A stretch of 57,714 nucleotides of DNA from a virus. Where the stretch lies: IMG/VR virus record IMGVR_UViG_3300000295_000011; one strand, written 5' to 3'. The notes beneath the pieces are model-generated. The model saw nothing but the letters and a program-made list of their open reading frames with translations, did not search any database and had not been told where the DNA came from. Positions 18,403-46,589 of this stretch are shown piece by piece. A program made the translations under genes and the position numbers. Each line of letters starts with the position of its first letter. Within the stretch, counting starts at the first letter, position 1.

Positions 18403-18405
18403 TGG

Positions 18406-20920: not shown

Positions 20921-20965
20921 CCGTTGATGTTGCTATAATGAGCCCATGTCCTTTTGGAGGAAATC

Positions 20966-26690: not shown

Positions 26691-27453
26691 CGAACTGAAG
26701 CTCAATACCTCTGAGTTCACGGCTAGCTCCGAACTCAACGCCCTGCACTTCATGATTCAGTCAATCGTGAAGGGGATGGTCAATACGGCCATCCCCGTCC
26801 GCGTGGACTCAGTCAACCGCACGGGCGAGGGCAACGGCGCGGAGTACCTCTCTGCGACGCCCCTGGTCGAGATGCGCACCGCCTCGGGCGAGGCAATCCC
26901 GAACGTTTCGATCCCGAAGCTCAGGTGGTTCAGGCTTCAGCATGGGACGGCGGCAATCATCGTCGACCCGAAGCCCGGTGACATCGGCCTTGCGATCTTC
27001 GCTCAGCAGGATGTGTCCGCACTGAACGGCGAGGCTACGCCCGTGCAGCCGGGTAGCTTCCGTTGCTTCGATATGTCCGACGGGTTCTACATCGGCGGGT
27101 TCTGGGGGAAGAAGCCCACTACCTTCATCCACTTGGAGGAAGAGGGCACGATTCACGTCGTAGCTCCCCAGAGCATCAACGAGGAGACGCCCGCGCTCAC
27201 GATCAAGTGCGATACGGCGCGGGTCGAGGCTTCGTCCTCGGTCACGCTCGACACGCCTGCGACATCTTGCACGGGGACGCTGACCGTTACGGGTCTCATC
27301 ACCGGCAAAGGCGGGCTTGCCATCTCCGGCGGCTCTGGCGCATCGGTCGACGGCTCCCTCACCACGACGGGCGACGTTGTTGCGGCGGGCGTCTCGCTTG
27401 ACACTCACACCCACCCGGGCGACTCGGGCGGGACAACAGGGACACCACAGTAA
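26683..27453 (+). CDS. baseplate central spike (gpV / gp138-N-like)
   Basis: 256 aa. C-terminal GVSLDTHTHPGDSGGTTG spike-tip type motif. Confidence 0.6.
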   Translation: MSDELKLNTSEFTASSELNALHFMIQSIVKGMVNTAIPVRVDSVNRTGEGNGAEYLSATPLVEMRTASGEAIPNVSIPKLRWFRLQHGTAAIIVDPKPGDIGLAIFAQQDVSALNGEATPVQPGSFRCFDMSDGFYIGGFWGKKPTTFIHLEEEGTIHVVAPQSINEETPALTIKCDTARVEASSSVTLDTPATSCTGTLTVTGLITGKGGLAISGGSGASVDGSLTTTGDVVAAGVSLDTHTHPGDSGGTTGTPQ

Positions 27454-27821
27454 TGGCTCACACGAACTACACGCCTCAGCTCACCGCGTCCGCCTGTTTC
27501 ACGTTCGACGGCAACGGGAACCTGAAGATGCTCGAGGGCACGGCGGCGACACTGCAGAACGTCTCGAACGAATGCAGGTGCTTTACCGATGACCTGTACT
27601 TCTACGCGGAGCATGGCATCGACTGGTTCTCCGATCAGTTGGGCAAGCCCGTGCAGAAGGCCGTGACCGCCGCCCGCCTGAGGGATGCGGCCTTGTCGGT
27701 CGAGGGCGTGGAGGCCGTGGAGGCCGTGGAGATTGACGACGTGGACAGTCGCGCCCGCACACTGACGGGGCGCATCACCATCCGAACAACTGAGGGCGAT
27801 CATGGCCGTAGTGAAATTTGA
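27453..27821 (+). CDS. baseplate wedge protein (gpW/gp25-like)
   Basis: 122 aa, immediately before the J-like gene. Confidence 0.45.
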   Translation: MAHTNYTPQLTASACFTFDGNGNLKMLEGTAATLQNVSNECRCFTDDLYFYAEHGIDWFSDQLGKPVQKAVTAARLRDAALSVEGVEAVEAVEIDDVDSRARTLTGRITIRTTEGDHGRSEI

Positions 27822-29010
27822 TGAACTGACGGGCGTGGTTGTGCCCGACTCCTCCGAGATTCGCGAGGACTTCGCAAAGGGCATCGTGAAGGCGTTCCGC
27901 TCCGATCCCGACCGTCCCGACGTGAACGTTGAACCGACCTCCCCGATGGGGCAAGTGGTCGACCTGGTCGCTGCGGAGATCGAGGCGAAGAATGCCGAGA
28001 TCGCATACCTTGCCAATCAGCTCAACCCCCAGACTGCTCGTGGTGTCTTCCTCGACGCCATTGGCGGCCTCTACGGCATCGACCGCAAGCTCTCAGAGCC
28101 TTCCGTGGTTACCTGCACTCTGACAGGCCTGAAGGGCACTGTGATCCCTTATGGCGCGATTGTGCAGGACACCAACGGGAATAACTTCAGGCACTCCGCT
28201 GTTGGCGGTGCTGTGATCGGGGACGATGGGACGGTCACCACGACTTTCGATTCGGTCGAGCACGGCTCGGTCGAGGTCGCACCTGAGACGGTGACGAAGA
28301 TCGTCACGATCGTCGCAGGGTGGGATGCCGTCACGAATCCCGACTCGGGCGCTCTCGGACGCAGCAGGGAACCTGACAGCGAGTACCTCGCGCGCATCAC
28401 GGAGAGCTACGCGATCAATGCTCTGGGTAGCTTGGAGGCCATTCAGGCGAATCTGGCAGAGCTTGACGGCGTGCTTGACTGCGTGGTGCTAGAGAACTTC
28501 ACGAACGAGTACAAGACGGAATTCGGCCTGCGCATCGAGCCGCACAGCATCGCGGTCTGCATCGTGGGCGGGGATGATGAGGCAATCGCCGAGACCATCT
28601 ACCGACGAAAGGACATGGGGTGCGGCACGACGGGCAGTTACTCGGTCACGTACATCGCAAAGGATCACTTCAACGCGACGTACACGTACCGCATCACCCG
28701 TCCGAGCACACAGGACTTCAAGGTGCGCGTGACGTTTAACGCCGAGTCCGTGAACCCGTATGAGGAAGCGGACGTAAAGGCGGCCTTGATTGCGGACTTC
28801 TCGGGCGAAGGCTCGAACCCGCGCATCAAACTGGCTACGAAGGTCTACGCGTCCCGCTTCTACGGCGTGGCGATCCCCAAGACTACGGCTCCCGTGCGCA
28901 AGATCGAGATTCAGCTCGGCGATGCAGGGTGGGTTGACTCCGTGGAGATCCCCGCCAACGTCGAGCCTTCGATTTCCTCGGAGAACATCGTCTTCGTGTA
29001 CGAGAGGTAA
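27802..29010 (+). CDS. baseplate J-like protein
   Basis: 402 aa, by position and general resemblance. Confidence 0.65.
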   Translation: MAVVKFDELTGVVVPDSSEIREDFAKGIVKAFRSDPDRPDVNVEPTSPMGQVVDLVAAEIEAKNAEIAYLANQLNPQTARGVFLDAIGGLYGIDRKLSEPSVVTCTLTGLKGTVIPYGAIVQDTNGNNFRHSAVGGAVIGDDGTVTTTFDSVEHGSVEVAPETVTKIVTIVAGWDAVTNPDSGALGRSREPDSEYLARITESYAINALGSLEAIQANLAELDGVLDCVVLENFTNEYKTEFGLRIEPHSIAVCIVGGDDEAIAETIYRRKDMGCGTTGSYSVTYIAKDHFNATYTYRITRPSTQDFKVRVTFNAESVNPYEEADVKAALIADFSGEGSNPRIKLATKVYASRFYGVAIPKTTAPVRKIEIQLGDAGWVDSVEIPANVEPSISSENIVFVYER

Positions 29011-29013
29011 GGC

Positions 29014-29649
29014 ATGGCGGACACACAGACATGGTTCAACTTCGCATCCGTTGAGGACGTGCGGGGCATCCCCGATGTCGCCTCCACGCAGTCAGAAGCT
29101 ATCCAGACGCAGTACGCCTTCAGTGCGGACTTTCAGAATCTGGGAAGCCTGATGCAGGATGTGATCGACGCCACGCACGACCTCGAGCGCCTGCACGCGG
29201 CGGCGATGGATCCCCAGACCGCCTACGGCGTTTACCTCGACTGGTGGGGGCAGAAAGTCGGCGTAGACCGCTTCATCAAGGTGCGCGGCGAGTACGTGCG
29301 CTTTGATGATGACTACTTTCGCTTCCTGATCCTCTACCGCGCCGCTTGCAACATCTCGAACGGCTCGGCGGACGCCGCGAACAAGCTGCTACAGCGCCTG
29401 ACGGACACCACGGTTTTCGTCGTGGACTATCTCGACATGAGCGTGAACAGCATCGTCATCATCGGGAACATTTCCGACCTGCAGGCAATGATTTTGCAGA
29501 CCTACGGCCTATTGAATCGACCAGCGGGCGTTCTGACCAATCTTCTCGTCATCTATCCCGACGAGCAGATTTTCGGCTTTGAGGGGTCGACCCTCATGCC
29601 TTTCGACGTCGGCGTTTTCAATCCCGGCAGAACAATTGAGATTGATTGA
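29014..29649 (+). CDS. baseplate/fibre-attachment protein (DUF2612 / gpI-like)
   Basis: 211 aa, between the J-like gene and the first fibre gene. Confidence 0.5.
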   Translation: MADTQTWFNFASVEDVRGIPDVASTQSEAIQTQYAFSADFQNLGSLMQDVIDATHDLERLHAAAMDPQTAYGVYLDWWGQKVGVDRFIKVRGEYVRFDDDYFRFLILYRAACNISNGSADAANKLLQRLTDTTVFVVDYLDMSVNSIVIIGNISDLQAMILQTYGLLNRPAGVLTNLLVIYPDEQIFGFEGSTLMPFDVGVFNPGRTIEID

Positions 29650-30707
29650 TGAGCAACTATCCCGAACACCTGTTGACCTCGGCACTGGCCGCCGAGGGCG
29701 ACAAAACGATTCCGCCCGCAACCTCGCAGGAGGCGGGCACTGGCCGCTTTTCGCAGAACAAGGGGTGGACGGAAGTCAACTCCATGCCGCTCGCAGAGGG
29801 CGGCATCCCGCCGAAGCGTCAAGACTTCAACGGTGCGTTCTACCTGCTATCCCAGCTTCTGCTTTGGTATCAGCAGGGCGGCGTGATGAACTATTCCGTC
29901 GACCTCGACTATGAGGTCGGTAATGAGGTCATGCTCAACGGAACTAAGTATCGCTGTCTTCGCGAGAATGGCCCGGGCACGTCGCTTGTCACGCCTGGGT
30001 CGAGCAAGGCCGTTTGGAAAAATTTGGACGCACCAAGCGTTATAGCAGGTCAGATCACGCCTTTTGCGAATTGCCGTCTTGGTGGCAGCGACGGACGTCG
30101 CTTGATTCCGTGGGGCGAGACAGCGGCCGACGAGCGATATGTGTTGTGTGACGGTGGCTCCGACGGCCTCGGAGGTACTGTTCCAGACTTGATTGGGAAG
30201 TTTATTCTCCCGAGCACCGTAGGCGAGTCTGGACAGGTTGGTGGCAAGCTGACCGCAGGGACGGATGACAAAAAGATTGCGGGGACGGTTGGCGAAACGA
30301 TTCTGACCGTTGACCAGATCCCCAGTCACTCGCACACCGGCAAGGCTGCGGCGGTGTCCGGGCATACGCACTCGCGCGGCACGATGAACATCACGGGCTC
30401 CTTCCCCGTCGATGATCACAAGCAGCGTTATGTGACCGGCAGCTTCTACGCAGGCGAATGGGACTGTTGGGATAGCGACAACCGAGACTCTGAAAACACG
30501 TCGGTGCGGTGTCAGTTCGACGCCGCGCGCACTTGGACGGGGCGCACGTCTACGGATGGCGCTCACTCACACGACGTCACCCTCGAGTCCGTCGGCGGCA
30601 ATCAGGGACACACGCACACGCTTGACGGCGCGTCACATTCGCACACGGTCAAACTTCCGCTGCCGCCGTTCTTCAAACTGGCTTTCTTTGTAAAGCTACC
30701 TGAATAA
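29646..30707 (+). CDS. tail fibre protein with collar-like segment and HxH repeats
   Basis: Segment LCDGGSDGLGGTVPDLIGKFILPS. Repeats HSHTG, GHTHS, AHSHD, GHTHT, SHSHT. Contains MNITGSFP, which resembles the cassette entry motif. Confidence 0.7.
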   Translation: MMSNYPEHLLTSALAAEGDKTIPPATSQEAGTGRFSQNKGWTEVNSMPLAEGGIPPKRQDFNGAFYLLSQLLLWYQQGGVMNYSVDLDYEVGNEVMLNGTKYRCLRENGPGTSLVTPGSSKAVWKNLDAPSVIAGQITPFANCRLGGSDGRRLIPWGETAADERYVLCDGGSDGLGGTVPDLIGKFILPSTVGESGQVGGKLTAGTDDKKIAGTVGETILTVDQIPSHSHTGKAAAVSGHTHSRGTMNITGSFPVDDHKQRYVTGSFYAGEWDCWDSDNRDSENTSVRCQFDAARTWTGRTSTDGAHSHDVTLESVGGNQGHTHTLDGASHSHTVKLPLPPFFKLAFFVKLPE

Positions 30708-30716
30708 GAGGGCGAA

Positions 30717-31808
30717 ATGGCAGAAAAATTTTTATTCCATTACGTCTATACGGCGGTCGGGACGCTTTCGGGGCAGAGCTTCATCACGCAGACGGAAGAT
30801 GCGATTAACGATCTCGCTCGTTATGCGTCCGAAGGCAACGCAGATGCTACCGAGGCTCTTCGTCTGGCGAAGATCGCGAACGACAACTCAGAGACCGCTC
30901 TGAACAACTCGTCTCAAGCGGTCTCAACGGCGAACTCAGCGCTCTCTCAAGTCAAGACGCTGACGACAACGGTTGAGTCGTGGAACAAGCGCATCCAGAC
31001 GGCTGAGTCCAATGCGGCGACCGCCGTCTCGACAGCCAACGCAGCGAAGTCGAGTGCGGAGTCGGCAGTGACGACCGCAAATTCTGCTCTTGCCATTGCA
31101 GGTGAGGCGAAACAAAACTCGAGCGATGCGCTTGCCATTGCGCAGCAGGCGGACAAGAACTCTACGTTCGCTGTGAGCAAGGCAACCGATGCTGCTGCGA
31201 CCGCTGACGAAGCGAAGAAGCTGGCTCAGCAGGCGGTCATCGATGCAGAGTCTACTCTCGTCGAAATGGAGGGACTCCTCGCCACCACGACGGCCAAGGC
31301 CACGGAGGCCGCCTCGTCCGCGCAAGACGCCTCCTCGAGCGCGCTGCAGGCTCAAAACTCCTCGTTGCTCGCCGAAAAGTGGGCGAGCTGGATGAGCAAT
31401 TCTGCGGCCGAGGGACAGCCCGAGGACTTTACGGTCGACGGCACTGAATACTCGTCGAAGTGGTATGCGACCAAGGCCTCCGAAAGCGCAAGCGTGGCTT
31501 CTGATGCCTCAACGTCTGCTACGGCTGCCGCTGACTCTGCGGGCGCAAGCGCAACGGGTGCGCAGCAGTCGATGCAGACCGCTCAGCAGGCGGCGGCAGG
31601 GGCGAGTGCGTCCGCGCAGGCGGCAGAAGGATCAGCTGTTCGCGCAGAAGATGCCGCGAAGCGAGCTGAAGATGCGGCCTCAAGAAACGTCAATGCACTG
31701 ACCTATGACGCGCAGACACCGACCCCTGAGCAGCAGGCACGGGCGAGAGCAAACATCGGCATCTTGAGCGACGCCGAAATTGATGGGCTTTTTGCTGATC
31801 AGAGTTAA
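30717..31808 (+). CDS. tail fibre protein (Ala/Ser-rich coiled-coil shaft)
   Basis: 363 aa of repetitive A/S/T/Q coiled-coil-like sequence. Confidence 0.65.
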   Translation: MAEKFLFHYVYTAVGTLSGQSFITQTEDAINDLARYASEGNADATEALRLAKIANDNSETALNNSSQAVSTANSALSQVKTLTTTVESWNKRIQTAESNAATAVSTANAAKSSAESAVTTANSALAIAGEAKQNSSDALAIAQQADKNSTFAVSKATDAAATADEAKKLAQQAVIDAESTLVEMEGLLATTTAKATEAASSAQDASSSALQAQNSSLLAEKWASWMSNSAAEGQPEDFTVDGTEYSSKWYATKASESASVASDASTSATAAADSAGASATGAQQSMQTAQQAAAGASASAQAAEGSAVRAEDAAKRAEDAASRNVNALTYDAQTPTPEQQARARANIGILSDAEIDGLFADQS

Positions 31809-31823
31809 CAAGGAGGCATTCAT

Positions 31824-32051
31824 GTGAGTGTGATTCGACCCGCGCTTTCTTCCAGTGAGCGCACTACCGAGAGAAGGGCTGTGACGGTTATCCGACGCAG
31901 CCCTTCTTTTTTACGGCCGCAGACGATCGTCGAGGGGCTCCCGCAGGAGACCCCGACCGATCCGTATCTGCCGGTCGACTGGAAAACAGGAGATGTGATT
32001 ACGGCTGCAAGGCTGAACGCCACCGATGAAGGCGTCGACAAAAAACGCTGA
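31824..32051 (+). CDS. possible small fibre-associated protein or remnant
   Basis: GTG start after AAGGAGG. Only the C-terminal half (DWKTGDVITAARLNATDEGV) looks protein-like. Confidence 0.3.
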   Translation: MSVIRPALSSSERTTERRAVTVIRRSPSFLRPQTIVEGLPQETPTDPYLPVDWKTGDVITAARLNATDEGVDKKR

Positions 32052-32138
32052 CGCCATCGAGCGGCTTAAGGCTCAGCAGCCCACGAAAATCCCCACAACT
32101 TTTATTGACAACCTCTTTTAAATAAGGAATTTTTTATC

Positions 32139-32978
32139 ATGGCTACTCAGTTTCTCGACCTCGCTGGCTTGACCTACTATGACGGCAAGCTGAAGGAAAA
32201 GGCCGCTGGCTCCATCAAAATCGAAGGTCTGAACGTCTCGCTTACGTCGATCTCTGGTGCGGTACTCGGCACGATCGCGATCCCGCAGCAAGAAATCGAA
32301 CTCGCCTCTGGTTCGAAGAATGGCCTTATGAGCAAGGAACACTTCACCAAGCTCGAAGGTATCGCCGCCGGTGCAACGCTGGTCGAAGAAAGCGAAACTA
32401 ACGGCAATGTCAAGATCAATGGCAAGGAAACGACGGTTTACACGCCTGAGGTCTACACCCCTCACGAAAATGGCCTCTACAAGGTGACGGTCACCGACAA
32501 GGGTGCTGTGAGCGTCGCCACGCCGGTCACGAAGAGTGACATCACCGGTCTCGGCATTCCGGCTCAGGACACGACCTATGCGCCTGCATCTGGCGAAAAG
32601 GATGGCCTGATGTCGGCTGCTCACTTCACCAAGCTTGAAGGCGTTGAAGCCAAGGCTCAGGTGAACGTGATCGAGAAGGTGTCTGTCAACGGCTCTGCGC
32701 TCCCGATCAACAGCAAGGGTGTGAACATTGACCTCACGCCGTATGCCCTCAGGACCGACATCACGAATGTCTACAAGTTCAAGGGCTCTGTCGAGAACTT
32801 CGAGGCTCTGCCGAAGGACGACGTGACGGCTGGTGACGTGTATGACGTTAAGGCCGCTCATGGCGACAATCCCGCCGGCACGAACTTTGCCTGGACGGGC
32901 ACGGAATGGGATCCGCTCGGCGGTGCTTTCCACGTCGACGCTATCGCTACCAGCGCTATCGACGCTCTCTTCGCTTAA
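32139..32978 (+). CDS. tail fibre protein (GLMS..HFTKLEG repeat type)
   Basis: Repeat NGLMSKEHFTKLEGI / DGLMSAAHFTKLEGV. The N-terminus MATQFLDLAGLTYY is shared with the next fibre gene. Confidence 0.7.
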   Translation: MATQFLDLAGLTYYDGKLKEKAAGSIKIEGLNVSLTSISGAVLGTIAIPQQEIELASGSKNGLMSKEHFTKLEGIAAGATLVEESETNGNVKINGKETTVYTPEVYTPHENGLYKVTVTDKGAVSVATPVTKSDITGLGIPAQDTTYAPASGEKDGLMSAAHFTKLEGVEAKAQVNVIEKVSVNGSALPINSKGVNIDLTPYALRTDITNVYKFKGSVENFEALPKDDVTAGDVYDVKAAHGDNPAGTNFAWTGTEWDPLGGAFHVDAIATSAIDALFA

Positions 32979-33001
32979 TCGATGACCAACTGAGGTGAAA
33001 A

Positions 33002-33616
33002 ATGGCCGGTTTTCTTGATCTAACCGGCCTCTCGCGCTTCAAATCGAAGTTGCTTGAGGCCATTGCAAACGTTTATGTCACCAAGACAGCACATTCGAAG
33101 GCGCTTAACCTCAAGGTCAACAAGGCCGACCTTGAATCTGAAATCAAGCGAGTCCTTGGAACTCTAGACACGGGCATCCCGGTTGGCGCGATCATGGCCT
33201 TCCACGATGTGCCTGCGGGATGGCTTCAGTGCAACGGGGCGGCGGTGAGTCGAACGACTTACGCCGCTCTTTTTGCAAAGATCGGCACAAAGTACGGCTC
33301 GGGTAACGGCTCGACGACGTTCAACCTCCCGAACCTTCACCATAAGTTCATCGAGGGCACGACCACTTCTTCAGAGGTTGGTAAGTCTGTGTCGGCTGGG
33401 TTACCGAACATCAGCGGACGACTCGGCGCATACGACTGTGACGACTCCAAATTCTCAGGGCCATTTCAATATGTAGGCCATGAAGGCGGCGTCTCAACTG
33501 CATGGAGGAGCGTTCCGTACGCGAATTTTGACGCCTCGCGTGCATCGTCAAAATACGGCTCTTCGTCAACCGTCCAACCAGAGTCCATCCGCCTGATCCC
33601 TTGTATCAAATCTTGA
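33002..33616 (+). CDS. tail-collar-domain fibre / receptor-binding protein with exchangeable C-terminal tip (cassette A expressed)
   Basis: Collar-type segment PVGAIMAFHDVPAGWLQCNGAAVSRTTYAALFAKIGTKYGSGNGSTTFNLPNL. Crossover site CCGAACATCAGCGG at 33404-33417. Confidence 0.85.
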   Translation: MAGFLDLTGLSRFKSKLLEAIANVYVTKTAHSKALNLKVNKADLESEIKRVLGTLDTGIPVGAIMAFHDVPAGWLQCNGAAVSRTTYAALFAKIGTKYGSGNGSTTFNLPNLHHKFIEGTTTSSEVGKSVSAGLPNISGRLGAYDCDDSKFSGPFQYVGHEGGVSTAWRSVPYANFDASRASSKYGSSSTVQPESIRLIPCIKS

Positions 33617-33821
33617 TGCAAAGGATGAGCCTCAGTGCCGAAGGCTGTACCGTTGATGCAGAACCGTAGGTGCTGTCAGACTTGGCCGCAGAAAAGGAAA
33701 ACTTTCGGAATTGAATCTGGCCCGGGTTAAAGTATGCCTTGCTGCCCGTGGACGAGGAAAAGGCACCGGTGCCCTCCTCGCCGTGGTCACCACCACCAGG
33801 CAAAGCGCCCGTTATGTTCGG
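33606..33821 (-). other. silent fibre-tip cassette B (71 aa)
   Basis: PNITGALPGGGDHGEEGTGAF...STVQPSALRLILCIKI*. Stop-free, with no plausible independent start. Confidence 0.8.
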
Positions 33822-33826
33822 ACGCA

Positions 33827-34048
33827 CCGAACATCACAGGTGAATTCCCAAACAATGACAACGAATATGAAAAGTATTATTCAGGCGCATTTTCTATCGG
33901 ATCTGTAAGGCTTTCTGGCTATTCAGACGGAAATGGCTCTACCGGGCAGACTGGATTGTTCCGGGCTTCCAGGTCATCATCAACTTACGGATCCAGTACG
34001 ACTGTCCAACCCTCATCTGTTCGCTCGCTTTTCTGCATTAAATCTTGA
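33827..34048 (+). other. silent fibre-tip cassette C (73 aa)
   Basis: PNITGEFPNNDNEYEKYYSGAF...TTVQPSSVRSLFCIKS*. Confidence 0.8.
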
Positions 34049-34241
34049 TGCAGAAAAACGACCGGACGGCGGCAGGCTGCACGGTCGAAGAGCTGCTGTA
34101 AATCGCGCTTGAGCGAGATGCCGAAAAGTCAGCCGTGTTGCTCCCCCAGAGCTGCCCCTCTGAACAATTCCCGTCGCCGGTCTTTTTGAAGGCACCGGTT
34201 CCTGACAGCCATGACGCAGCGAGGGTTCCACTGATGTTCGG
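34038..34241 (-). other. silent fibre-tip cassette D (67 aa)
   Basis: Hand-translated: PNISGTLAASWLSGTGAFKKTGDGNCSEGQLWGSNTADFSASRSSAIYSSSSTVQPAAVRSFFCIKI*. It has no start codon, so it is absent from the ORF track. Confidence 0.75.
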
Positions 34242-34246
34242 TGCGT

Positions 34247-34456
34247 CCGAACATAACAGGTAGCTTCTTTGGACGATACGGCGGCTATTACAGCGGAGCG
34301 TTCACAGCCAACAGCTCATATAAAAGCGATGCGTGGGCCGGGACGGATCCAAACCCAACCTCAGATTTCCGAGCGTCTCGAAGCTCGTCTGTGTACGGAG
34401 CGGCGTCGACCGTCCAGCCGGCTTCAACCCGTATGCTCTTGTGCATCAAGACTTGA
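34247..34456 (+). other. silent fibre-tip cassette E (69 aa)
   Basis: PNITGSFFGRYGGYYSGAF...STVQPASTRMLLCIKT*. Confidence 0.8.
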
Positions 34457-34661
34457 TGCACAGGATAAGCCTGAGAGAAGCAGGCTGTACTGTTTGCGTC
34501 GCACCATACGTGCTATCTGAGTCTGATGCGTCGAAATAGAACAAGTGTCCGCCGTTGTTATCTTTGTTTGGGCAGTCTACAATTTTGCCAACTCGAAAGG
34601 CACCATTTTGTGTGCCGACGGGAACGTAAGCAGACGCCACAAATTCTCCTGTGATGTTCGG
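34446..34661 (-). other. silent fibre-tip cassette F (71 aa)
   Basis: PNITGEFVASAYVPVGTQNGAF...QTVQPASLRLILCIKS*. Confidence 0.8.
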
Positions 34662-34666
34662 TGCGT

Positions 34667-34870
34667 CCGAACATAACGGGTGCAGTCACTGCGTCATGGG
34701 TAAGAGGCACTGGAGCCTTCAAAGATGCCGAAAATGGTAATTGCCCAGGCGGAAACCTCAATGGGCCCGCCAAAATAGACTTTTCGGCATCTCGCTCAAG
34801 CGACTTGTATGGCTCGTCTTCAACTGTGCAGCCCGCTTCAATTCGTCTCGTTCACTGTGTTAAGTTTTAA
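34667..34870 (+). other. silent fibre-tip cassette G (67 aa)
   Basis: PNITGAVTASWVRGTGAFKDAENGNC...STVQPASIRLVHCVKF*. Related to cassette D. Confidence 0.8.
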
Positions 34871-35108
34871 TGCAATGAACGAGACGGACAGACGAGGGTT
34901 GGACGGTCGACGTGCCATATGTGCTACTGGAACGTGAGGCATCAAAGCGCAGACAACCGCCTTTGTCATTATTGATGATACTGTAATAAGACACAGCCGA
35001 TGCAGCGGTTGTTCTTGTCTTGCTGTAAATCGCTCCAGAGACATATTTATTTACTGCGGTGACATCAGCGGCACGCAAGGTGTCATAACCGACACCTGTG
35101 ATGTTCGG
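34860..35108 (-). other. silent fibre-tip cassette H (82 aa)
   Basis: PNITGVGYDTLRAADVTAVNKYV...STVQPSSVRLVHCIKT*. Confidence 0.8.
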
Positions 35109-35113
35109 ACCGT

Positions 35114-35329
35114 CCGAACATCACAGGACAAGTCAACCTATGTGGGGCTTGGGGTGGCGTCTCGAACGCCGGCGCTCTATCGACGCGCGGTTCTACCGGA
35201 GCGCCGACTGGCGGAGCACAGAACGGCGTAAATGTCTACTTTGATGCTTCGGCTTCAAGAAGCACATATGGATCGTCCAGTACAGTGCAGCCGTCATCTA
35301 TCAGAGGACTCTTCTGCATCAAGATTTGA
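35114..35329 (+). other. silent fibre-tip cassette I (71 aa)
   Basis: Hand-translated: PNITGQVNLCGAWGGVSNAGALSTRGSTGAPTGGAQNGVNVYFDASASRSTYGSSSTVQPSSIRGLFCIKI*. Not in the ORF track. Confidence 0.75.
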
Positions 35330-35549
35330 TGCAGTGAACGAGGCGAAGCGATGTCGGTTGAACAGTCGATGATGCGCCGTACTTCGCGTCGGAATTTGAT
35401 GCCGCAAGGGCAATGTCTGTAATGACGGATGAGCCAACGTTCGTCTTGCCGTTCCACGGCGTGGAGGACTTCCCACCAGAAAGTGCTCCACTGGCGGTGA
35501 AGTCATCGCAAGCTACGTTAAACGGCTTGATAGCGCCTGTTATGTTCGG
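35319..35549 (-). other. silent fibre-tip cassette J (76 aa); the only cassette with an in-frame upstream ATG (35564)
   Basis: (MQIRV)PNITGAIKPFNVACDDF...STVQPTSLRLVHCIKS*. Confidence 0.8.
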
Positions 35550-35641
35550 GACTCGGATTTGCATGTCATAGAGCGCTCTCTATGTCGTGCCGGGCACATG
35601 AGCGGGCTTCATCTGCAACTCGACGAAGCCCGCGCTGTTGG

Positions 35642-36781
35642 CTACTTCCAGTCGATCATGCCGGCACATTCGGCACACGCTCGAACGTGCTCACTCCAGC
35701 GCTCCATAACCGCCCTCCTGGCGTCGAAAAAGTCGGAGCGCTGATAGGCTCTGCTTACCTGCGTACCGACATCGTGGCTGAGACACATCTCCGCAACGTC
35801 GAAAGGGACAGCTTCGTCCGCAAGCCACGATCTTGCTATCGATCGCAGGCCGTGTGCAACGAGTCGTCCCTTGAGCGATGTACTGTGCAGGTGCTTCGCC
35901 AAGGCCTGCGAGCTAACGGGCTTGCCGGTGCTCTTGCCGGCAAAGACATGACCGCTTCGTGGCCTCGGGCTGAGCGTCTGCTCTCTGGCGATCAGCTCCT
36001 TCATGAAAGACGTGAGGGGCACGCGAAATGGCCGTCGCTTCTTCATGTGCTCAGCTGGTATGTGGATCGCGTCTTCTGTGATCCACGACTTCTCGAGCGA
36101 AGCATTCTCGCCTGGTCGAAGCATCGAGCAGAGCGAGAAGAGGAAGAGCACGCGCATGCGCTCCGGCGCTTCTTTCATAACCGCCATAACGGTGGGCAAC
36201 TCTCGCCAGTCGACAGACGGCATCGGCTTGACCTGCGGCGGTGCGAAGACCTTCGATACTCGTGCGAGAGGGTTGTGCTCGATGTAGCCGGCACAAACGG
36301 CGAGGTCAAGGATCTCGCGAAGGCGCATGAGTACGCGCTTGAGCGTCGCCTGCTTGCCGTCCTTTTCTATCGGCTGCACGGTTCGGATCACGAGCGGAGC
36401 CGTGATCTCGTCGAGCTGACGATTTCCGAGCGGTTCGATGATGTACCGCTCCAGGCGTCGGCGCTCGTCCTGATAGCTCACGATCTGGGGCTTTTTGAGG
36501 CGGCACCAAAGACGAAAAGCGTCTTTCAGTACATACCCTTTTGGCGGCTCGAGCCCGATGTCCTTTCTTAGGCGTCGGGCTTTTTGTCGTGCCTGCATCA
36601 GGCTCATGTCGGGATGTTCGCCGAGACGCTTGTCTGCGACACGGCCTGAGCACGACGTGCGAAAGTACCAGATTTTTCTGCCGGACGGCATGACTCGCAA
36701 CGTCAGGCCGTTCCCGTCGGCTACCGAATATCTCTTGTCCCGCGGCTTCATTGCCGCAATTTTTTTAGAGGAGAGCGTCAT
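35642..36781 (-). CDS. tyrosine recombinase (P4-integrase-like), candidate shufflon invertase
   Basis: 379 aa. N-terminal arm-binding-type domain (YSVADGNGLTLRVMPSGRKIWYFR). Catalytic signature LRPGE ... HGLRS ... AYQRSD. 78 nt from the end of ORF J (92 nt from site 35536-35549). Paralogous to int at 45402. Confidence 0.85.
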   Translation of the reverse strand: MTLSSKKIAAMKPRDKRYSVADGNGLTLRVMPSGRKIWYFRTSCSGRVADKRLGEHPDMSLMQARQKARRLRKDIGLEPPKGYVLKDAFRLWCRLKKPQIVSYQDERRRLERYIIEPLGNRQLDEITAPLVIRTVQPIEKDGKQATLKRVLMRLREILDLAVCAGYIEHNPLARVSKVFAPPQVKPMPSVDWRELPTVMAVMKEAPERMRVLFLFSLCSMLRPGENASLEKSWITEDAIHIPAEHMKKRRPFRVPLTSFMKELIAREQTLSPRPRSGHVFAGKSTGKPVSSQALAKHLHSTSLKGRLVAHGLRSIARSWLADEAVPFDVAEMCLSHDVGTQVSRAYQRSDFFDARRAVMERWSEHVRACAECAGMIDWK

Positions 36782-37363
36782 ATGACCTCAGACTTCAAAA
36801 AAGCATTTTGTTATGACGATGCTGGGTACTACCAGCACGAGGTTTCTGTCCAGGTTGTGGACGGAGAGCCTCTCATGCCGCCGTCGGTCACCTTTTCCTG
36901 TCCATGGGGAAAGGCGACGCAAGACGACACCGTCTTCTACCGCTTCGACGGGAAAAAGTGGATTGCTGAGAAGAAGCCGACGTGCGCAGCCGAGTGTGTC
37001 GGACTCGTGATCTCTCATACGACGACCACGCCGCATGACGAGGAAATGCGCGAATTGATCCGCAAGTTCTCTCAGGAAGAGGGCTATTGCGAAAAGCGCG
37101 GCGAGGACCTCTCGTGGTCCCTCGAGAAGATCCCTGAAAAGACTGAGGAAGAAAAACTGACTGAGGCGAGGCAGTCCGTTCGCTCGAAGCGCGATTCCCT
37201 GATCTCTGACACGGACTACCTGCTCTGCGCCGACTACCCGATCAGCGCCGAAGACCTCAAGGCCGTCAAGGCCTACCGTCAGGCGCTTCGCGATGTTCCG
37301 CAACAGGAGGGCTTCCCCTTCGAGGTGGTCTGGCCTGAACTGCCGACCATCCTCGCGGAATAA
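36782..37363 (+). CDS. tail fibre assembly protein (Tfa/gpG-like chaperone)
   Basis: C-terminal RDSLISDTDYLLCADYPISAEDLKAVKAYRQALRDVPQQEGFPFEVVWPELP is the typical Tfa signature. Confidence 0.75.
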   Translation: MTSDFKKAFCYDDAGYYQHEVSVQVVDGEPLMPPSVTFSCPWGKATQDDTVFYRFDGKKWIAEKKPTCAAECVGLVISHTTTTPHDEEMRELIRKFSQEEGYCEKRGEDLSWSLEKIPEKTEEEKLTEARQSVRSKRDSLISDTDYLLCADYPISAEDLKAVKAYRQALRDVPQQEGFPFEVVWPELPTILAE

Positions 37364-37434
37364 CGAATCAATCCGTCCCCCGGCACTCCCGGGATTTTTT
37401 TAACTTGCAGGGAGAGGCAACAAAGGAGGTATTT

Positions 37435-37788
37435 ATGCCTGACCGTTATCGGGACATCCTGACAGGTTCTGGCGTGTGGATTGCGCTTTTTGCATCCCTC
37501 GGCGGATGCGTTCTGCGCTATCTCGAAGAGTACAAGCACGAGAAAAAGTGGCATTGGAAGTGGCTCGCTGCCGATCTTCTTTCGTCTGCGTTTCTCGGCT
37601 ACTTCACGTTTTGGGTGCTCTGGGATTCAGCGCACTTCACAGCCTCGCAGTGCGCTGTGGCCACGGCGATCGTCGGCAACTTCGGCACTCGGATCTTTGA
37701 CGTCGTGCGGTTCGTGATCTTCAAAAAAATCGGGTACGTCCCGCCGAATGAACGCCCCTCTGCCGCCGATGAGGAATCCAAGAAATGA
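37435..37788 (+). CDS. holin-like membrane protein
   Basis: AAAGGAGG RBS. Three hydrophobic segments and a charged C-terminus. ATGA-coupled to the endolysin. Confidence 0.6.
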   Translation: MPDRYRDILTGSGVWIALFASLGGCVLRYLEEYKHEKKWHWKWLAADLLSSAFLGYFTFWVLWDSAHFTASQCAVATAIVGNFGTRIFDVVRFVIFKKIGYVPPNERPSAADEESKK

Positions 37789-38240
37789 AAAGCTACTACT
37801 CATACGACATTCAGCCTGCCTGTGACTTCATCGCGAAGTACGAGGGTTGCAGGCTCACGGCGTACCTCTGTCCCGCAGGCGTGCCAACCATTGGCTACGG
37901 CCACACGGGTCCAGAAGTGCGCAAGGGCATGACCATCACGCAGGCCGAAGCCGACGAACTGCTCCGCAAGGATGTGGAGCGCCACGTGCATGATTTCTCG
38001 CAATACGTGAACGTCCCCGTCACCGGAAACCAGTTCATCGCGTTGACCTCCCTCGTTTTCAATTGCGGCGTGAGCTACGTCGTTCACCAGTGCCCGCGCC
38101 TCATGCGTTCGCTCAATGCGGGCGACGTTGAAGCCTGCGCTCACGAATTCCTCGACATCAACCGCGCTGGCGGAAAGGTGCTTGCGGGCTTGACCGAGCG
38201 CCGTCGCGCCGAAGCAAAACTCTTTCTCTCGGAGGTCTGA
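37785..38240 (+). CDS. endolysin, GH24 lysozyme type
   Basis: FIAKYEGCRLTAYLCPAGVPTIGYGHT matches the phage lysozyme catalytic region. Confidence 0.85.
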   Translation: MKSYYSYDIQPACDFIAKYEGCRLTAYLCPAGVPTIGYGHTGPEVRKGMTITQAEADELLRKDVERHVHDFSQYVNVPVTGNQFIALTSLVFNCGVSYVVHQCPRLMRSLNAGDVEACAHEFLDINRAGGKVLAGLTERRRAEAKLFLSEV

Positions 38241-38242
38241 AC

Positions 38243-38782
38243 ATGGTCTATCTGAAATGGCTGGCACTCATGCCTGCGTCGTTCATCATGGCCATCGTTG
38301 GCCGCCTCCTCGCACCGATCCTGCCGCTCTTCGTGGACAAGGAAACGCACCGCCTGCCGGATTGGCTCTCGTGGTTTGCAACGGACGACCACGACGCAGA
38401 CGGGGATCAGGGTCACTGGGAGCGTTGGCCGGGCACTGATTGGTGGAGTACGTACAAAAGGCGCGTTGCCTGGCTCCTTAGGAATGTCTGCTACGGCTTC
38501 GACATCGACGTCCTCGGCGTGCGCGTCTACCCGACGGACGAGTGGCACGTGAGCGGTAATCCGGACGCGAGCGACACGAATGGCATCTCGGGCACTTGCA
38601 TCCGACACTGCTACCGTGACGGCAAGCACATCGCCTGGCACCTCTACGTCGTGAAGCACTACGAGCTTCTCGGTCTACCCTGCTGTGTGCGCATCAGCCT
38701 CGGTTGGAAACTCTGGGGCTCTCGTGACAAGACGGCGCAGTACACCGTGTACTTCAACCCGATCAAGGGATGGGAGCTATGA
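38243..38782 (+). CDS. hypothetical membrane-anchored protein in the lysis cassette
   Basis: N-terminal TM (LALMPASFIMAIVGRLLAPILPLF). Trp/Asp-rich body. Confidence 0.55.
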   Translation: MVYLKWLALMPASFIMAIVGRLLAPILPLFVDKETHRLPDWLSWFATDDHDADGDQGHWERWPGTDWWSTYKRRVAWLLRNVCYGFDIDVLGVRVYPTDEWHVSGNPDASDTNGISGTCIRHCYRDGKHIAWHLYVVKHYELLGLPCCVRISLGWKLWGSRDKTAQYTVYFNPIKGWEL

Positions 38783-39231
38783 GTGCGTGGCTCAAGCCTG
38801 CTGCGGCAGTGCTCGCTGCGTTAATAGCTTTCGGAGCGGGATGTCGGTACTCGGCCGCGCAGGCCGACGCCGAGATCTCTGCTTTGAAGGAAGAGTATGC
38901 GACGCGTGCGCGCGCACTGGAGGAGAAGTATCGTGAGAGTGAAGCCCTTGCAAACGCAAAGCTCAGAGCGGCATGGGAGGAGCGTGACATCGCGCTCGCT
39001 CATGCTAGCGACCTGTCTGCTGACCTTGAGCGGGTGCGCAAGCAATCCGACGCCGCCCGCCGTAGACTGTCCGCAACCGCCGCAGGTCCCTGCAAGTCTT
39101 GCGAGGAGCAGCTTGCCCGAAGTACAGGCATTATCGAGCGAGGCGCAGTCCTACTTCAAAGATGTGTCCGCCTTTCTCAGAGAGTTGCAATCGACAAGGA
39201 CGCCGTAGTCAAGATCGCGGACGGACCTTAA
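38779..39231 (+). CDS. i-spanin (Rz-like)
   Basis: N-terminal TM followed by a long charged coiled-coil. ATGA-coupled start at 38779; the alternative ATG is at 38770. Confidence 0.7.
   Translation: MSAWLKPAAAVLAALIAFGAGCRYSAAQADAEISALKEEYATRARALEEKYRESEALANAKLRAAWEERDIALAHASDLSADLERVRKQSDAARRRLSATAAGPCKSCEEQLARSTGIIERGAVLLQRCVRLSQRVAIDKDAVVKIADGP
39002..39208 (+). CDS. o-spanin (Rz1-like lipoprotein) embedded in the +1 frame of the i-spanin
   Basis: MLATCLLTLSGC lipobox followed by a Pro-rich mature part. Entirely inside 38779..39231. Confidence 0.7.
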   Translation: MLATCLLTLSGCASNPTPPAVDCPQPPQVPASLARSSLPEVQALSSEAQSYFKDVSAFLRELQSTRTP

Positions 39232-45401: not shown

Positions 45402-46589
45402 ATGCAAGTCACCGCCAGAAACATCGGGAGCCTCCCAGTGGGGACTCACCGAGCAGAACGTTGCCTATATTTAAGAAAGCGAGAGGGTCACGCGCCGACG
45501 TGGGTCTTCCGCTACACGGTCTCGGGAAAGCAGAAGGACGTGGTGATCGGGACGGCGGACGCCGTGACGATTGCTCAGGCAAAGGAAACCGCCGCACGCT
45601 TTCGCACGATGATTGCCGACGGGGTCGACCCGCTTGCCGCGAAGCAGGAGCGGCGGGAGAGGATGAAGAACGCGGGCGCGGAGGTTGACCGCCCGTTCAC
45701 CTTCGCCGACCTCGTTGCCGAGGCCCTGCCCGTCATCGTGCAGAGCAAGGCGTGGCGAAATCAGAAACACGCTGCACAATGGCAATCGACCCTCGAGCAG
45801 TACGCCCTCCCTGTACTGGGTAAGCTGTCGGTCGAGGACGTGAGCCGAGACGACATCCTTGAAGTACTCGTGCCGATTTGGAGAACGAAGCCGGAGACTG
45901 CTGGCAGATTGCGCGGCAGGCTTGAGGCCGTCTTCGCCTACGCCATAGTCATAGGAAAGCGAAGCGGAGGGAATCCCGCCCTGTGGCGCGGGAACCTTGA
46001 GATGTTCCTGCCGCCGATTGCCAAGGTGAAAAAGGAAAGTCACCACGAGGCGCTCACGTTCGACCAGGCTCGCGCGCTTTTCGATGAGTGGCGACCGCCC
46101 ACGTCGATCACGGCCTGCGCGATTCTGTTTGGGGCGCTGACCGCGTCCCGCGTCGGGGAATTCGTGCCCGCGAAGTGGGAGGAGATCGACCTGCACAGGG
46201 AGGTCTGGCACTGCCCGCCCGAGCGACGAAAGGACGGGAAGAAATACCCGCACCGCGTCCCGCTGTGCCGGCAGCTCGTTTCCATGCTGAAGATGCTCCC
46301 GCACGATTCCCCGTATGTGTTCGCCGGCAAAGGCGGCTCGCACATCTCGAAGGAGACGCCCCGCGTGGTTCTCCAGAAGAAGCTCGGGCACGGGACAATG
46401 CACGGCTTTCGCTCGACATTCCGTGACTGGTGCGCGGAGAACGGGAAGGACCCGATTGTTGCCGAGAAAAGCCTGATGCACGCTACTGGGAGTGCCGTGG
46501 TTCAGGCGTATCAACGCTCCGACCTCCTAGACGCTCGCAGGGTTCTGATGCAGGAATGGGCGGACGCCGTGTACCCGGAGCAGGTTTGA
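45402..46589 (+). CDS. int: integrase, P4-type tyrosine recombinase
   Basis: N-terminal arm-binding-type domain. Catalytic signature SRVGE ... HGFRSTFRDW ... AYQRSD. Adjacent to the repeat-rich attP and to xis. Confidence 0.9.
   Translation: MQVTARNIGSLPVGTHRAERCLYLRKREGHAPTWVFRYTVSGKQKDVVIGTADAVTIAQAKETAARFRTMIADGVDPLAAKQERRERMKNAGAEVDRPFTFADLVAEALPVIVQSKAWRNQKHAAQWQSTLEQYALPVLGKLSVEDVSRDDILEVLVPIWRTKPETAGRLRGRLEAVFAYAIVIGKRSGGNPALWRGNLEMFLPPIAKVKKESHHEALTFDQARALFDEWRPPTSITACAILFGALTASRVGEFVPAKWEEIDLHREVWHCPPERRKDGKKYPHRVPLCRQLVSMLKMLPHDSPYVFAGKGGSHISKETPRVVLQKKLGHGTMHGFRSTFRDWCAENGKDPIVAEKSLMHATGSAVVQAYQRSDLLDARRVLMQEWADAVYPEQV

What the first reader, a model, noticed from the sequence alone, without database searches (positions are those of the whole stretch)
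35642..37363. The candidate invertase is a paralog of the phage integrase, abuts the fibre chaperone gene back-to-back, and lies antisense to late transcription
SEEN:
- The genome has two P4-type tyrosine recombinases: 35642-36781(-) and int 45402-46589(+).
- They share an N-terminal arm-binding-type domain and near-identical C-terminal segments, AYQRSDFFDARRAVMERW versus AYQRSDLLDARRVLMQEW.
- The first has no attP-like repeat field next to it and sits beside the cassette array.
- Its ATG (36781-36779) directly abuts the ATG of the tail-fibre-assembly gene (36782) with zero intergenic bases (CAT|ATG). Each promoter would have to lie inside the other gene.
- The Tfa, holin and endolysin genes downstream have no obvious promoter of their own.

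INFERENCE: late rightward transcription must cross the whole cassette array and then read antisense through the recombinase gene to reach tfa and the lysis genes. That would silence the invertase during lytic growth and restrict shuffling to the lysogen or early phase. It would be an integrase-to-invertase co-option.
Basis: partly seen in the sequence, partly recalled or inferred. Interest (0 to 1): 0.6.

Follow-up and report, generated by a model that had tools for sequence, protein, structure and literature searches.

The report
Integrase-type invertase embedded antisense in late operon
A gut (Sutterella-type) temperate phage carries a second, integrase-like enzyme that most likely flips its ten tail-fibre tip cassettes, and the gene sits head-to-head with the fibre chaperone gene as the only backward-facing gene in the late operon; this layout is conserved in about 45 related phages, but whether it regulates the enzyme is untested.

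Summary
Gene 35642-36781(-) encodes a full three-domain P4-type tyrosine recombinase, and its ATG abuts the tfa ATG (CAT|ATG, 36779-36784).

It is not a close paralog of the resident integrase. The two share 27% identity and fall in opposite major clades of a 78-protein tree. It belongs to an old clade (42-100% identity) found in Sutterellaceae and in an unidentified lower-GC group. Every member of this clade examined, except contigs that end too early, lies next to a tail-fibre inversion array.

The clade keeps three features:
- head-to-head start codons with a Tfa-like gene (spacing -2 to +18 nt);
- an exact GTGC-N3-GCAC palindrome about 1185 nt from the recombinase start, present in 39 of 46 loci;
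- in Sutterellaceae, a hairpin plus U-run on the late-sense strand just before the tfa ribosome-binding site, present in 16 of 22 loci against 2.8 expected.

So late-sense RNA probably does enter the recombinase gene antisense. It then meets terminators, not free read-through.

Closest known systems are the Rin and Rci shufflons, and both enzymes lack the arm-binding domain. Earlier agents of this scan noted integrase-type invertases in other Sutterella phages. The junction conservation, terminators, palindrome and phylogeny are new here.

The parts
35642..36781 (-). rec: P4-integrase-type tyrosine recombinase (379 aa) and candidate shufflon invertase. Arm-binding domain is residues 1-77; catalytic residues are R222, H310, R313, H336 and Y346.
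   Evidence: Pfam and NCBIfam hits. Arm domain matches PDB 3JTZ by sequence (E 6e-12) and by fold (TM 0.93, rmsd 1.6 A). The full-length model best matches lambda Int 1Z1B/1Z1G. Catalytic residues are invariant in alignment A1.
36779..36784 (.). Start-to-start junction CAT|ATG, with zero intergenic bases. The rec SD (GAGG) lies in tfa codons 2-3. The tfa SD (AGAGGAGAG, 36767-36775) lies in rec codons 3-5.
   Evidence: Conserved across the clade as CAT|ATG, CAT|GTG, CATG or a gap of at most 18 nt.
36782..37363 (+). tfa: tail-fibre assembly chaperone (193 aa).
   Evidence: Pfam Phage_tail_APC, E 8.6e-23. PHROG tail fiber assembly.
36742..36766 (+). T2: late-sense hairpin GCGGC-N6-GCCGC followed by U7. 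It lies inside rec codons 6-14 and ends 15 nt before the tfa ATG.
   Evidence: -10.7 kcal/mol, z -4.4. Present in 16 of 22 lineages against 2.8 expected from synonymous-codon shuffles. Covariation at pair 26-54: CG 14, AU 3, GC 1. Six G-U cells pair only on the late-sense RNA, and none pair only on the rec-sense RNA.
36551..36589 (+). T1: late-sense 12-pair hairpin followed by UUUUUGU, embedded antisense in the arm-domain coding region.
   Evidence: -23.9 kcal/mol, z -4.5. The stem is invariant in 16 loci, while loop and neighbouring synonymous sites vary.
37379..37401 (+). T3: hairpin CCCGG-N5-CCGGG followed by U7, directly after the tfa stop and 33 nt before the holin ATG (37435).
   Evidence: Shares the motif CAYTSCCGSRATTTTTTTA with T2 (repeat D15).
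35602..35633 (.). H0: 9-bp GC-rich hairpin just after the rec stop, with no U-tract on either strand.
   Evidence: -19.7 kcal/mol, z -3.9. Compensatory C-G to U-A change in L021, L025 and L030.
35587..35597 (.). Conserved palindrome GTGCCGGGCAC (consensus GTGC-N3-GCAC); candidate protein-binding or accessory (arm-type?) site.
   Evidence: An exact match lies within -15 to +90 nt of the rec stop in 39 of 46 loci. Background is 5 hits in 418 kb. It sits about 1185 nt from the rec start wherever the stop codon falls. It is the only copy in the late region of the window.
33404..35549 (.). Shufflon array: 10 sites CCGAACATNANNGG, 5 invertible segments and 10 intact C-terminal tip cassettes (67-82 aa, each PNI(T/S)G...CIK(S/T/I)).
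   Evidence: (10 sites against 0.86 expected). Whole segments are found inverted and re-ranked at 96-99.7% identity in related contigs.
33002..33616 (+). Tail-fibre (Collar-domain) gene, whose 3' end is the active cassette.
   Evidence: Pfam Collar, E 2.9e-21. PHROG tail fiber.
37435..39231 (+). Lysis cassette downstream of tfa: holin, endolysin (37785-38240), a 179-aa protein, and a spanin-like gene.
45402..46589 (+). int: the resident phage integrase (395 aa), a distant relative of rec.

Best explanation
Gene 35642-36781(-) encodes the dedicated invertase of the ten-cassette tail-fibre shufflon. It comes from an old lineage of P4-type (heterobivalent, arm-domain-bearing) integrases that was recruited to inversion. 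It is not a copy of this phage's own integrase.

It travels as a fixed module in the order tfa, rec, hairpin, GTGC-N3-GCAC palindrome, about 45-55 nt of spacer, crossover array, fibre gene tip. Tfa and rec are divergent and share their translation-start region.

Rec is the only backward-facing gene in a roughly 32-kb late block. Neither tfa nor the holin gene has room for a promoter after the hairpin that precedes it. Late-sense transcription leaving the fibre gene therefore runs through the array and antisense into rec. There it meets conserved intrinsic-terminator-like hairpins: T1 inside rec, T2 15 nt before the tfa ATG, and T3 after tfa.

Only terminator-resistant or read-through polymerases reach tfa and the lysis genes. 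Those transcripts are fully complementary to the rec mRNA start. In a lysogen the terminators would shield the lysis genes, while rec is made at a low level from a promoter inside tfa.

Shown: the enzyme class, the clade, linkage to arrays, segment inversions between relatives, junction conservation, and the conserved hairpins and palindrome.

Inferred: that late RNA crosses rec, that T1-T3 terminate, that rec is silenced in lytic growth, and what the palindrome binds.

The confidence given is for the whole statement. The invertase identity alone I put at about 0.85, and the antisense-gating part at about 0.4.
For: Enzyme:
- Three Pfam domains and PRK09692.
- Arm domain matches 3JTZ/3RMP by sequence and by fold; the whole model best matches lambda Int.
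- The catalytic residues are invariant. The arm domain is under purifying selection, with pi at codon positions 1+2 about 0.05 against 0.2-0.28 at position 3.
- No serine-recombinase motif in any of the six frames.

Linkage to arrays:
- In about 45 loci at 42-100% identity, an array starts 52-110 nt after the rec stop. This holds across at least three tail-module types (window type, Mu-like L034, L036 type).
- The site sequence varies by lineage through synonymous changes but is uniform within an array: CCGAACAT, CCAAACAT, CCTAACAT, CCGAATAT, CCTAATAT, CCGGACAT, CCTGACAT.
- Whole segments occur inverted and re-ranked at up to 99.7% identity.
- G001 is 99% identical up to the first site and then diverges.

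Phylogeny:
- Array-linked enzymes form one clade (support 100/99).
- P0002 is in the other major clade. 282 clusters match P0001 at E<=1e-30, whereas P0002 scores 82 bits.

Geometry:
- rec is the only minus-strand gene between 7.2 and 39.2 kb.
- The junction is conserved.

Terminators:
-.
- The L036 type has a strong late-sense terminator immediately beyond the rec 5' end.

Palindrome.
Against: - No RNA or read data could be obtained. Antisense transcription, termination and silencing are therefore untested.
- No promoter was identified for rec or for tfa.
- No antiterminator was securely identified. ORF 6700-7134 has only a weak PHROG regulator hit at the lambdoid Q position.
- H0, T1 and T2 could equally insulate rec from late transcription. 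That would be the opposite of silencing.
- The T2 stem overlaps a conserved peptide (KKIAAxKP), so part of its conservation is due to coding. Its covariation rests on few independent events, and the loci are related.
- T1 is confined to the window's close relatives. T2 is absent from the lower-GC clade.
- Invertase activity is inferred from linkage and comparative rearrangements, not from an assay.
Confidence: 0.55

Rival explanations
1. Insulation instead of silencing. H0, T1 and T2 stop late-sense transcription, so rec is protected from antisense RNA and expressed in all phases. Tfa and the lysis genes are transcribed from an unrecognised activator-dependent promoter inside rec, or only by antiterminated polymerase. 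The head-to-head layout persists simply because the module is inherited as a block.
For: There are three late-sense terminator-like hairpins. T1 and T2 are conserved beyond the synonymous-shuffle expectation. The L036 type has a clean bidirectional terminator between rec and the lysis genes. No sigma-70-like promoter is visible, so activator-dependent promoters are plausible.
Against: T2 ends 15 nt before the tfa ATG, and T3 ends 33 nt before the holin ATG. Any tfa or holin transcript must therefore pass through these hairpins and must overlap the rec 5' end in antisense. H0 has no U-tract.
Confidence: 0.3
2. The embedded hairpins and the zero-base junction are by-products of coding sequence and genome compaction, with no regulatory role. 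The KK codons give the U-run, and the AA..KP codons give the stem.
For: The T2 stem and U-run coincide with the conserved N-terminal peptide SKKIAAMKP. Lys-rich coding strands naturally give antisense T-runs. The loci are phylogenetically related, so counts are not independent.
Against: Synonymous-codon shuffles that keep the protein give T2 in only 2.8 of 22 loci, against 16 observed. All late-sense hairpin-plus-T-run elements total 24 against 6.2 expected. Compensatory CG/AU/GC changes link a Pro third base to a non-synonymous change in the partner codon. There are 6 G-U cells on the late-sense strand and none on the rec-sense strand. The T1 stem third positions are invariant while the loop varies.
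Confidence: 0.15
3. The gene is a second integrase or excisionase-partner acting at another att site (or a remnant of another element), and only happens to lie beside the array.
For: It has the full integrase architecture, including an arm-binding domain. Its nearest annotated relatives outside the clade are phage integrases at 32-33% identity.
Against: Its position is fixed 52-110 nt from an inversion array in about 45 loci and three tail types, always internal to the prophage between the fibre and lysis genes. These phages carry a separate integrase (window P0002; L034 1-1105). The crossover sites occur only in the array.
Confidence: 0.03

Closest known systems
Rin shufflon of Bifidobacterium breve/longum prophages (Mavrich et al. 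2018, PMC6109161)
   Same: It is a phage-encoded tyrosine-family recombinase placed next to an array of alternative receptor-binding-protein C-terminal cassettes. The cassettes are separated by short asymmetric crossover sites, and inversions are seen between prophages and virions.
   Different: [quoted passage not shown] The enzyme here keeps it. The host phylum, site sequence and fibre family all differ. A head-to-head tfa junction, embedded terminators and a palindrome are not reported for Rin.
R64 / IncI1 plasmid shufflon (Rci recombinase, sfx sites, pilV)
   Same: It is a multiple-inversion system that swaps C-terminal tips of an adhesin. It uses a tyrosine recombinase encoded beside the array, with short sites that are conserved on one side.
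   Different: Rci hits only the catalytic Pfam domain and has no arm or Phage_int_M domain. It shows no significant similarity to P0001 (BLASTP E 0.13). rci is co-directional with pilV in R64, whereas rec here is convergent with the fibre gene. The target is a pilus adhesin, not a phage fibre.
Gin/Cin/Pin/Min serine invertase systems of Mu, P1, e14 and p15B
   Same: They give phage tail-fibre host-range variation by DNA inversion, with a recombinase gene adjacent to the invertible DNA. Min handles several segments.
   Different: These enzymes are serine recombinases that need a Fis-bound enhancer (established knowledge). No serine-recombinase motif is present in this window. In Mu and P1 the tfa genes lie inside the invertible segment, whereas here one fixed tfa serves all ten tips.
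P4-like / lambda-type heterobivalent integrases (P4 Int, HPI Int, lambda Int)
   Same: They share the three-domain architecture. The arm domain is 39% identical to the HPI Int arm domain (TM 0.93). The whole model best matches lambda Int, and the catalytic residues are the same.
   Different: Those enzymes integrate and excise at attP/attB, using multiple arm-type sites and directionality factors. Here the substrates are 10 short sites in inverted pairs, and the only conserved accessory-like element is one palindrome.
IS10 pIN/pOUT antisense control (analogy for the proposed regulation only)
   Same: Divergent, overlapping transcription units in which one RNA is complementary to the translation-start region of a recombinase mRNA (established knowledge).
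   Different: Nothing here is mapped. The overlap is with a structural late gene, and no small antisense RNA has been shown.

Membership tests
P4-like (heterobivalent) tyrosine integrase family | [quoted passage not shown] | tested here: met
   Pfam Arm-DNA-bind_3, E 1.9e-16. PDB 3JTZ, E 5.9e-12 over residues 1-77. Fold match TM 0.93, rmsd 1.6 A.
P4-like (heterobivalent) tyrosine integrase family | Core-binding domain plus catalytic domain with the R..HxxR..H/W..Y set | tested here: met
   Phage_int_M and Phage_integrase hits. R222, H310, R313, H336 and Y346 are invariant in 12 clade members. The model aligns to lambda Int over about 350 columns.
P4-like (heterobivalent) tyrosine integrase family | Catalyses integration and excision at attP/attB with arm-type sites | tested here: not met
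   There is no att-like repeat field. The gene is internal to the prophage and always beside an inversion array. The phage has a separate integrase. By function it is therefore not filed as an integrase. No activity assay was done.
Rci (shufflon-specific recombinase) family | Sequence homology to Rci and the Rci domain layout (catalytic domain plus C-terminal extension, no arm domain) | tested here: not met
   BLASTP of P0001 against R64 Rci gives E 0.13. Rci hits only PF00589.
Shufflon (multiple inversion system) as a functional class | At least 3 short crossover sites in both orientations, separating alternative in-frame 3' cassettes of one gene | tested here: met
   10 sites against 0.86 expected. 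10 intact cassettes.
Shufflon (multiple inversion system) as a functional class | Segments actually invert and permute | tested here: met
   Identical segments (96-99.7% identity) are found in both orientations and at different ranks in related contigs, bounded by the sites.
Shufflon (multiple inversion system) as a functional class | The adjacent recombinase is required for inversion | not testable with these tools
   Only conserved linkage supports this.
Rin-type phage tyrosine invertases | XerD-like two-domain recombinase without an arm domain | tested here: not met
   The arm domain is present and conserved across the clade, including the 42% branch. The Rin description is taken from PMC6109161. 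Rin sequences were not compared directly.
Serine invertases (Gin/Hin/Cin/Min) | Resolvase-type N-terminal catalytic serine motif | tested here: not met
   No Y-x-R-x-S-[TSD]..Q motif in any frame of the window (a regex based on established knowledge). P0001 has tyrosine-recombinase domains only.

The most novel reading that the evidence does not exclude
This clade may be a heterobivalent 'invertasome'. In this reading the retained arm-binding domain docks on the single conserved GTGC-N3-GCAC palindrome next to the recombinase gene. It would act like a recombinational enhancer or arm site that licenses and orients inversions among many short core sites. The head-to-head tfa/rec overlap and the late-sense terminators embedded in the arm-domain codons would then form an antisense gate that confines shuffling to the lysogen. 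That would be a new way for a lambda-Int-type enzyme to work, and a new regulatory layout for a phage host-range switch.
Probability: 0.2. Interest if true: 0.75.

Novelty: new variant of a known kind. Interest (0 to 1): 0.55.

Why it matters
Tail-fibre shufflons set phage host range, and tyrosine-recombinase versions are only recently known (Rin, 2018). This clade shows that a full lambda/P4-type integrase, arm domain included, can be dedicated to multi-site inversion. That raises a concrete mechanistic question: what the arm domain and the conserved palindrome do when there is no attP.

It also offers a compact module of about 4 kb, made up of tfa, rec, the accessory site and the array, that could be tested in E. 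coli.

The conserved head-to-head overlap and embedded terminators make a testable case for coupling a host-range switch to the lysis-lysogeny state. They also bear on how a phage protects its lysis genes from stray transcription coming out of a constantly rearranging DNA segment.

The clade is common in human-gut Sutterellaceae prophages. It is therefore relevant to reading gut virome assemblies, which break or mis-join at these arrays.

Tried and rejected
No read-level test of inversion heterogeneity or strand-specific transcription was possible.
- Megablast of the region against GenBank phages found nothing.
- The first genome-contig scan with a single protein found nothing. The alignment query worked.
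- Sliding-window nucleotide diversity across tfa, rec and the spacer showed no striking conserved block that would mark a promoter.
- Sigma-70 scans were empty or at chance level: the tool and a looser script on the window, and the lower-GC relative L068.
- The conserved flank GCAAATCCGAGT has no second copy in the window.
- Viral-contig scans with the intermediate relatives P0136, P0142 and P0146 found nothing, so the outer boundary of the array-linked clade is not defined.
- R64 was not held under accession AP005147. It was found as NC_005014.
- A literature search did not retrieve the P4-like arm-site sequence.
- A -1 frameshift at the A7 run in rec codons 6-7 was considered and rejected, because the spacer to the hairpin is only 2-3 nt.
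- The long minus-strand ORFs at 13.2-18.0 kb were considered as real genes and rejected. They have no family hits, and a continuous plus-strand ORF series covers the region.
Full report
OBSERVATION

The minus-strand ORF 35642-36781 encodes a 379-aa protein, P0001. It hits Pfam Arm-DNA-bind_3, Phage_int_M and Phage_integrase and NCBIfam PRK09692, the P4-like integrase model. The resident integrase P0002 (45402-46589, plus strand, 395 aa) has the same three domains.

The two proteins are 27% identical (E 8e-22). The 'near-identical' C-terminal strings are real, but they are the family's catalytic-tyrosine motif. The pattern [SY]RAYQRSD[FY] also retrieved Ruegeria and Mesorhizobium integrases.

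The CAT|ATG junction at 36779-36784 is exact. The partner gene is a tail-fibre assembly chaperone (Phage_tail_APC). It is followed by holin, endolysin and spanin-like genes.

WHAT LIES AROUND IT

The fibre gene 33002-33616 (Collar domain) runs into an array of ten CCGAACATNANNGG sites, against 0.86 expected by chance. These bound five invertible segments and ten intact tip cassettes of 67-82 aa. An earlier agent of this scan already described this array (e1-3659523).

The long minus-strand ORFs that a greedy ORF map shows at 13-18 kb are artefacts. They have no family hits, and a continuous plus-strand ORF series covers the region. With these discounted, rec is the only minus-strand gene between about 7.2 kb and 39.2 kb.

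IS IT THE INVERTASE?

No serine-recombinase motif exists in any frame of the window.

Close relatives of P0001 (86-98% identity) occur in 21 IMG/VR contigs. Each has the first crossover site 96 nt after the stop, and arrays of 2 to 12 sites.

More distant members (50-77%) occur in Sutterella, Duodenibacillus and Ca. Aphodousia genomes and MAGs. They are again followed, 52-110 nt after the stop, by arrays. This holds in at least three different tail modules: the window type, a Mu-like baseplate type (L034), and a third type (L036).

A branch at 42% identity, in contigs of 36-45% GC, has the same layout with CCTAATATTACAGG sites.

The site differs between lineages only by changes that keep P-N/D-I-T-G (CCGAACAT, CCAAACAT, CCTAACAT, CCGAATAT, CCTAATAT, CCGGACAT, CCTGACAT). 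It is uniform within each array. That is what a homology-dependent tyrosine-recombinase overlap region requires.

Whole segments recur in related contigs at 96-99.7% identity, in the opposite orientation and at different ranks. The nearest held virus record, G001, is 99% identical to the window up to exactly the first site and then diverges.

The enzyme's catalytic set is invariant, and its arm domain is under purifying selection. I conclude with high confidence that rec is the shufflon recombinase. This rests on linkage and comparative rearrangement, not on an assay.

IS IT A PARALOG OF THE INTEGRASE?

Only in the family sense. A search of 1.84 billion representative proteins gave 282 clusters at E<=1e-30, whereas P0002 scores 82 bits against P0001.

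In a maximum-likelihood tree of 78 proteins, all array-linked enzymes form one clade (100/99). P0002 sits with Ruegeria-type integrases in the other major clade (100/100).

Co-option of an integrase lineage is therefore supported. Duplication of this phage's own int is not.

R64 Rci has only the catalytic Pfam domain and no significant similarity to P0001. Rin is described as XerD-like, without an arm domain.

The AlphaFold model (pLDDT 80) best matches full-length lambda Int. Its N-domain matches the HPI integrase arm domain at TM 0.93 and rmsd 1.6 A.

THE JUNCTION

The start-to-start arrangement is conserved throughout the clade:
- CAT|ATG or CAT|GTG (abutting) in the window's relatives;
- CATG (2-nt overlap) in most other Sutterellaceae loci;
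- a 13-18-nt gap holding two overlapping Shine-Dalgarno sequences in the lower-GC branch.

This holds even though the divergent Tfa-like proteins have three different C-terminal domain types. Only the L036 type lacks tfa. There a bidirectional terminator separates rec from the lysis genes.

Each gene's ribosome-binding site lies in the other's first codons. The two mRNAs must therefore be complementary at their 5' ends, whatever promoters are used.

TERMINATORS ON THE LATE-SENSE STRAND

The scan found three hairpin-plus-U-run elements on the plus strand:

- T1 (36551-36582, -23.9 kcal/mol) lies inside rec.
- T2 (36742-36757 plus U7, -10.7 kcal/mol) ends 15 nt before the tfa ATG.
- T3 (37379-37393 plus U7) lies after tfa, 33 nt before the holin ATG.

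The T1 stem is invariant in 16 loci, while its loop and adjacent synonymous sites vary.

A T2-type element is present in 16 of 22 lineages, against 2.8 expected when synonymous codons are shuffled. All late-sense hairpin-plus-T-run elements in rec number 24, against 6.2 expected, with almost none on the rec-sense strand.

T2 shows covariation. One pair occurs as CG 14, AU 3 and GC 1, and the covariation score exceeds 496 of 500 shuffles and all slid controls. Six G-U cells pair only in the late-sense RNA, and none pair only in the rec-sense RNA. The loci are related and part of the stem is constrained by the peptide KKIAAxKP, so this evidence is moderate rather than decisive.

The natural reading is that late-sense RNA does reach the rec 5' end, and that its passage into tfa and the lysis genes is gated.

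No antiterminator was firmly identified. ORF 6700-7134 sits after a RusA-like gene, the lambdoid Q position, and has only a weak PHROG regulator hit. No sigma-70-like promoter was found for rec or tfa.

A CONSERVED PALINDROME

The 92-nt spacer between the rec stop and the last site is not strongly conserved overall. It does contain two elements:

- a hairpin (35602-35633) with a compensatory change;
- the palindrome GTGCCGGGCAC (35587-35597).

An exact GTGC-N3-GCAC lies within -15 to +90 nt of the rec stop in 39 of 46 loci, including the 42% branch. There are only 5 other hits in 418 kb of locus sequence.

The palindrome sits about 1185 nt from the rec start whatever the position of the stop codon, and it overlaps the stop in L040 and L042. 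It is conserved in sequence rather than by covariation, so a protein-binding site is likelier than an RNA structure. I propose it as the candidate accessory (arm-type?) site. This is untested.

MECHANISM, WITH STATUS

Shown:
- the enzyme class and clade;
- obligatory linkage to arrays;
- inversions between relatives;
- the conserved head-to-head junction;
- the conserved late-sense hairpins and the palindrome.

Inferred:
- late transcription leaves the fibre gene, crosses the array and enters rec antisense;
- T1, T2 and T3 attenuate it, so that only terminator-resistant transcription reaches tfa and the lysis genes;
- those transcripts cover the rec start region and would suppress Rec synthesis in lytic growth;
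- in a lysogen the terminators protect the lysis genes from stray transcription out of the rearranging array, while rec is expressed weakly.

The main rival is that the same hairpins insulate rec rather than silence it.

COMPARISON AND NOVELTY

Tyrosine-recombinase tail-fibre shufflons are known (Rin), and so is the shufflon principle (Rci). An arm-domain-bearing integrase-type invertase does not appear in the papers I could search.

Earlier agents of this scan noted the same enzyme type in other Sutterella phages (e1-3456741, e1-3726848, e1-3549384).

New here:
- the phylogenetic placement relative to int;
- extension of the clade to a lower-GC branch;
- the clade-wide start-to-start junction;
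- the embedded late-sense terminators;
- the palindrome.

VERDICT

This is a new variant of a known kind.

Noticed in passing
L012 (G001:C1) 876-6531; window 27000-33413: The nearest virus record is 99% identical to the window up to the first crossover site. Its 12-site array is then flanked on the far side by a second, convergent Collar-type fibre gene with Mu-like baseplate genes and an IS transposase fragment. It has no rec, tfa or lysis genes there. This looks like site-specific recombination between the shufflons of two prophages (a chromosomal inversion), or a chimeric assembly.
   Followed up: partly
window 33404-35549 compared with L020, L027 and L033: Cassette partners within a segment differ between contigs. 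F pairs with I in L020, and G pairs with C in L027 and L033, whereas the window has E/F, I/J, G/H and C/D. Site-specific inversion alone cannot produce this. It suggests extra homologous exchange at the conserved tail-to-tail stop region.
   Followed up: no
window 6329-7134: A RusA-like Holliday-junction resolvase (PHROG 190) is followed by a 144-aa ORF with a weak 'transcriptional regulator' PHROG hit. This is the position of the Q antiterminator in lambdoid phages, so it is a candidate late regulator.
   Followed up: partly
window 13217-17985: Long minus-strand ORFs (up to 513 aa) have no family hits and overlap a continuous series of plus-strand ORFs (12906-18402). They are almost certainly antisense artefacts of a GC-rich head-gene region.
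   Followed up: partly
L066-L072 (IMG/VR contigs, 36-45% GC): This lower-GC branch of the invertase clade (42% identity to P0001) has CCTAATATTACAGG arrays. Its tfa/rec intergenic region of 13-18 nt is a near-palindrome (AAGGATCTCCT) that serves as Shine-Dalgarno sequence for both divergent genes. The host was not identified.
   Followed up: partly
L073 (R64, NC_005014) 17003-21215: In R64, rci is co-directional with pilV and downstream of the shufflon. In this clade rec is convergent with the fibre gene, the opposite orientation.
   Followed up: no
window 36760-36766 and homologous positions in relatives: An A7 run (rec-sense codons KK) is almost invariant at rec codons 6-7 across the Sutterellaceae clade. 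It doubles as the U-run of T2 on the other strand. Slippage or frameshifting was considered but not tested.
   Followed up: no
L036, 6900-7000: The tfa-less lineage has a strong bidirectional terminator (AAAAACCCCCGT...ACGGGGGTTT) between the rec start and the holin/lysozyme genes. It occupies the same relative position as T2 in the window.
   Followed up: partly
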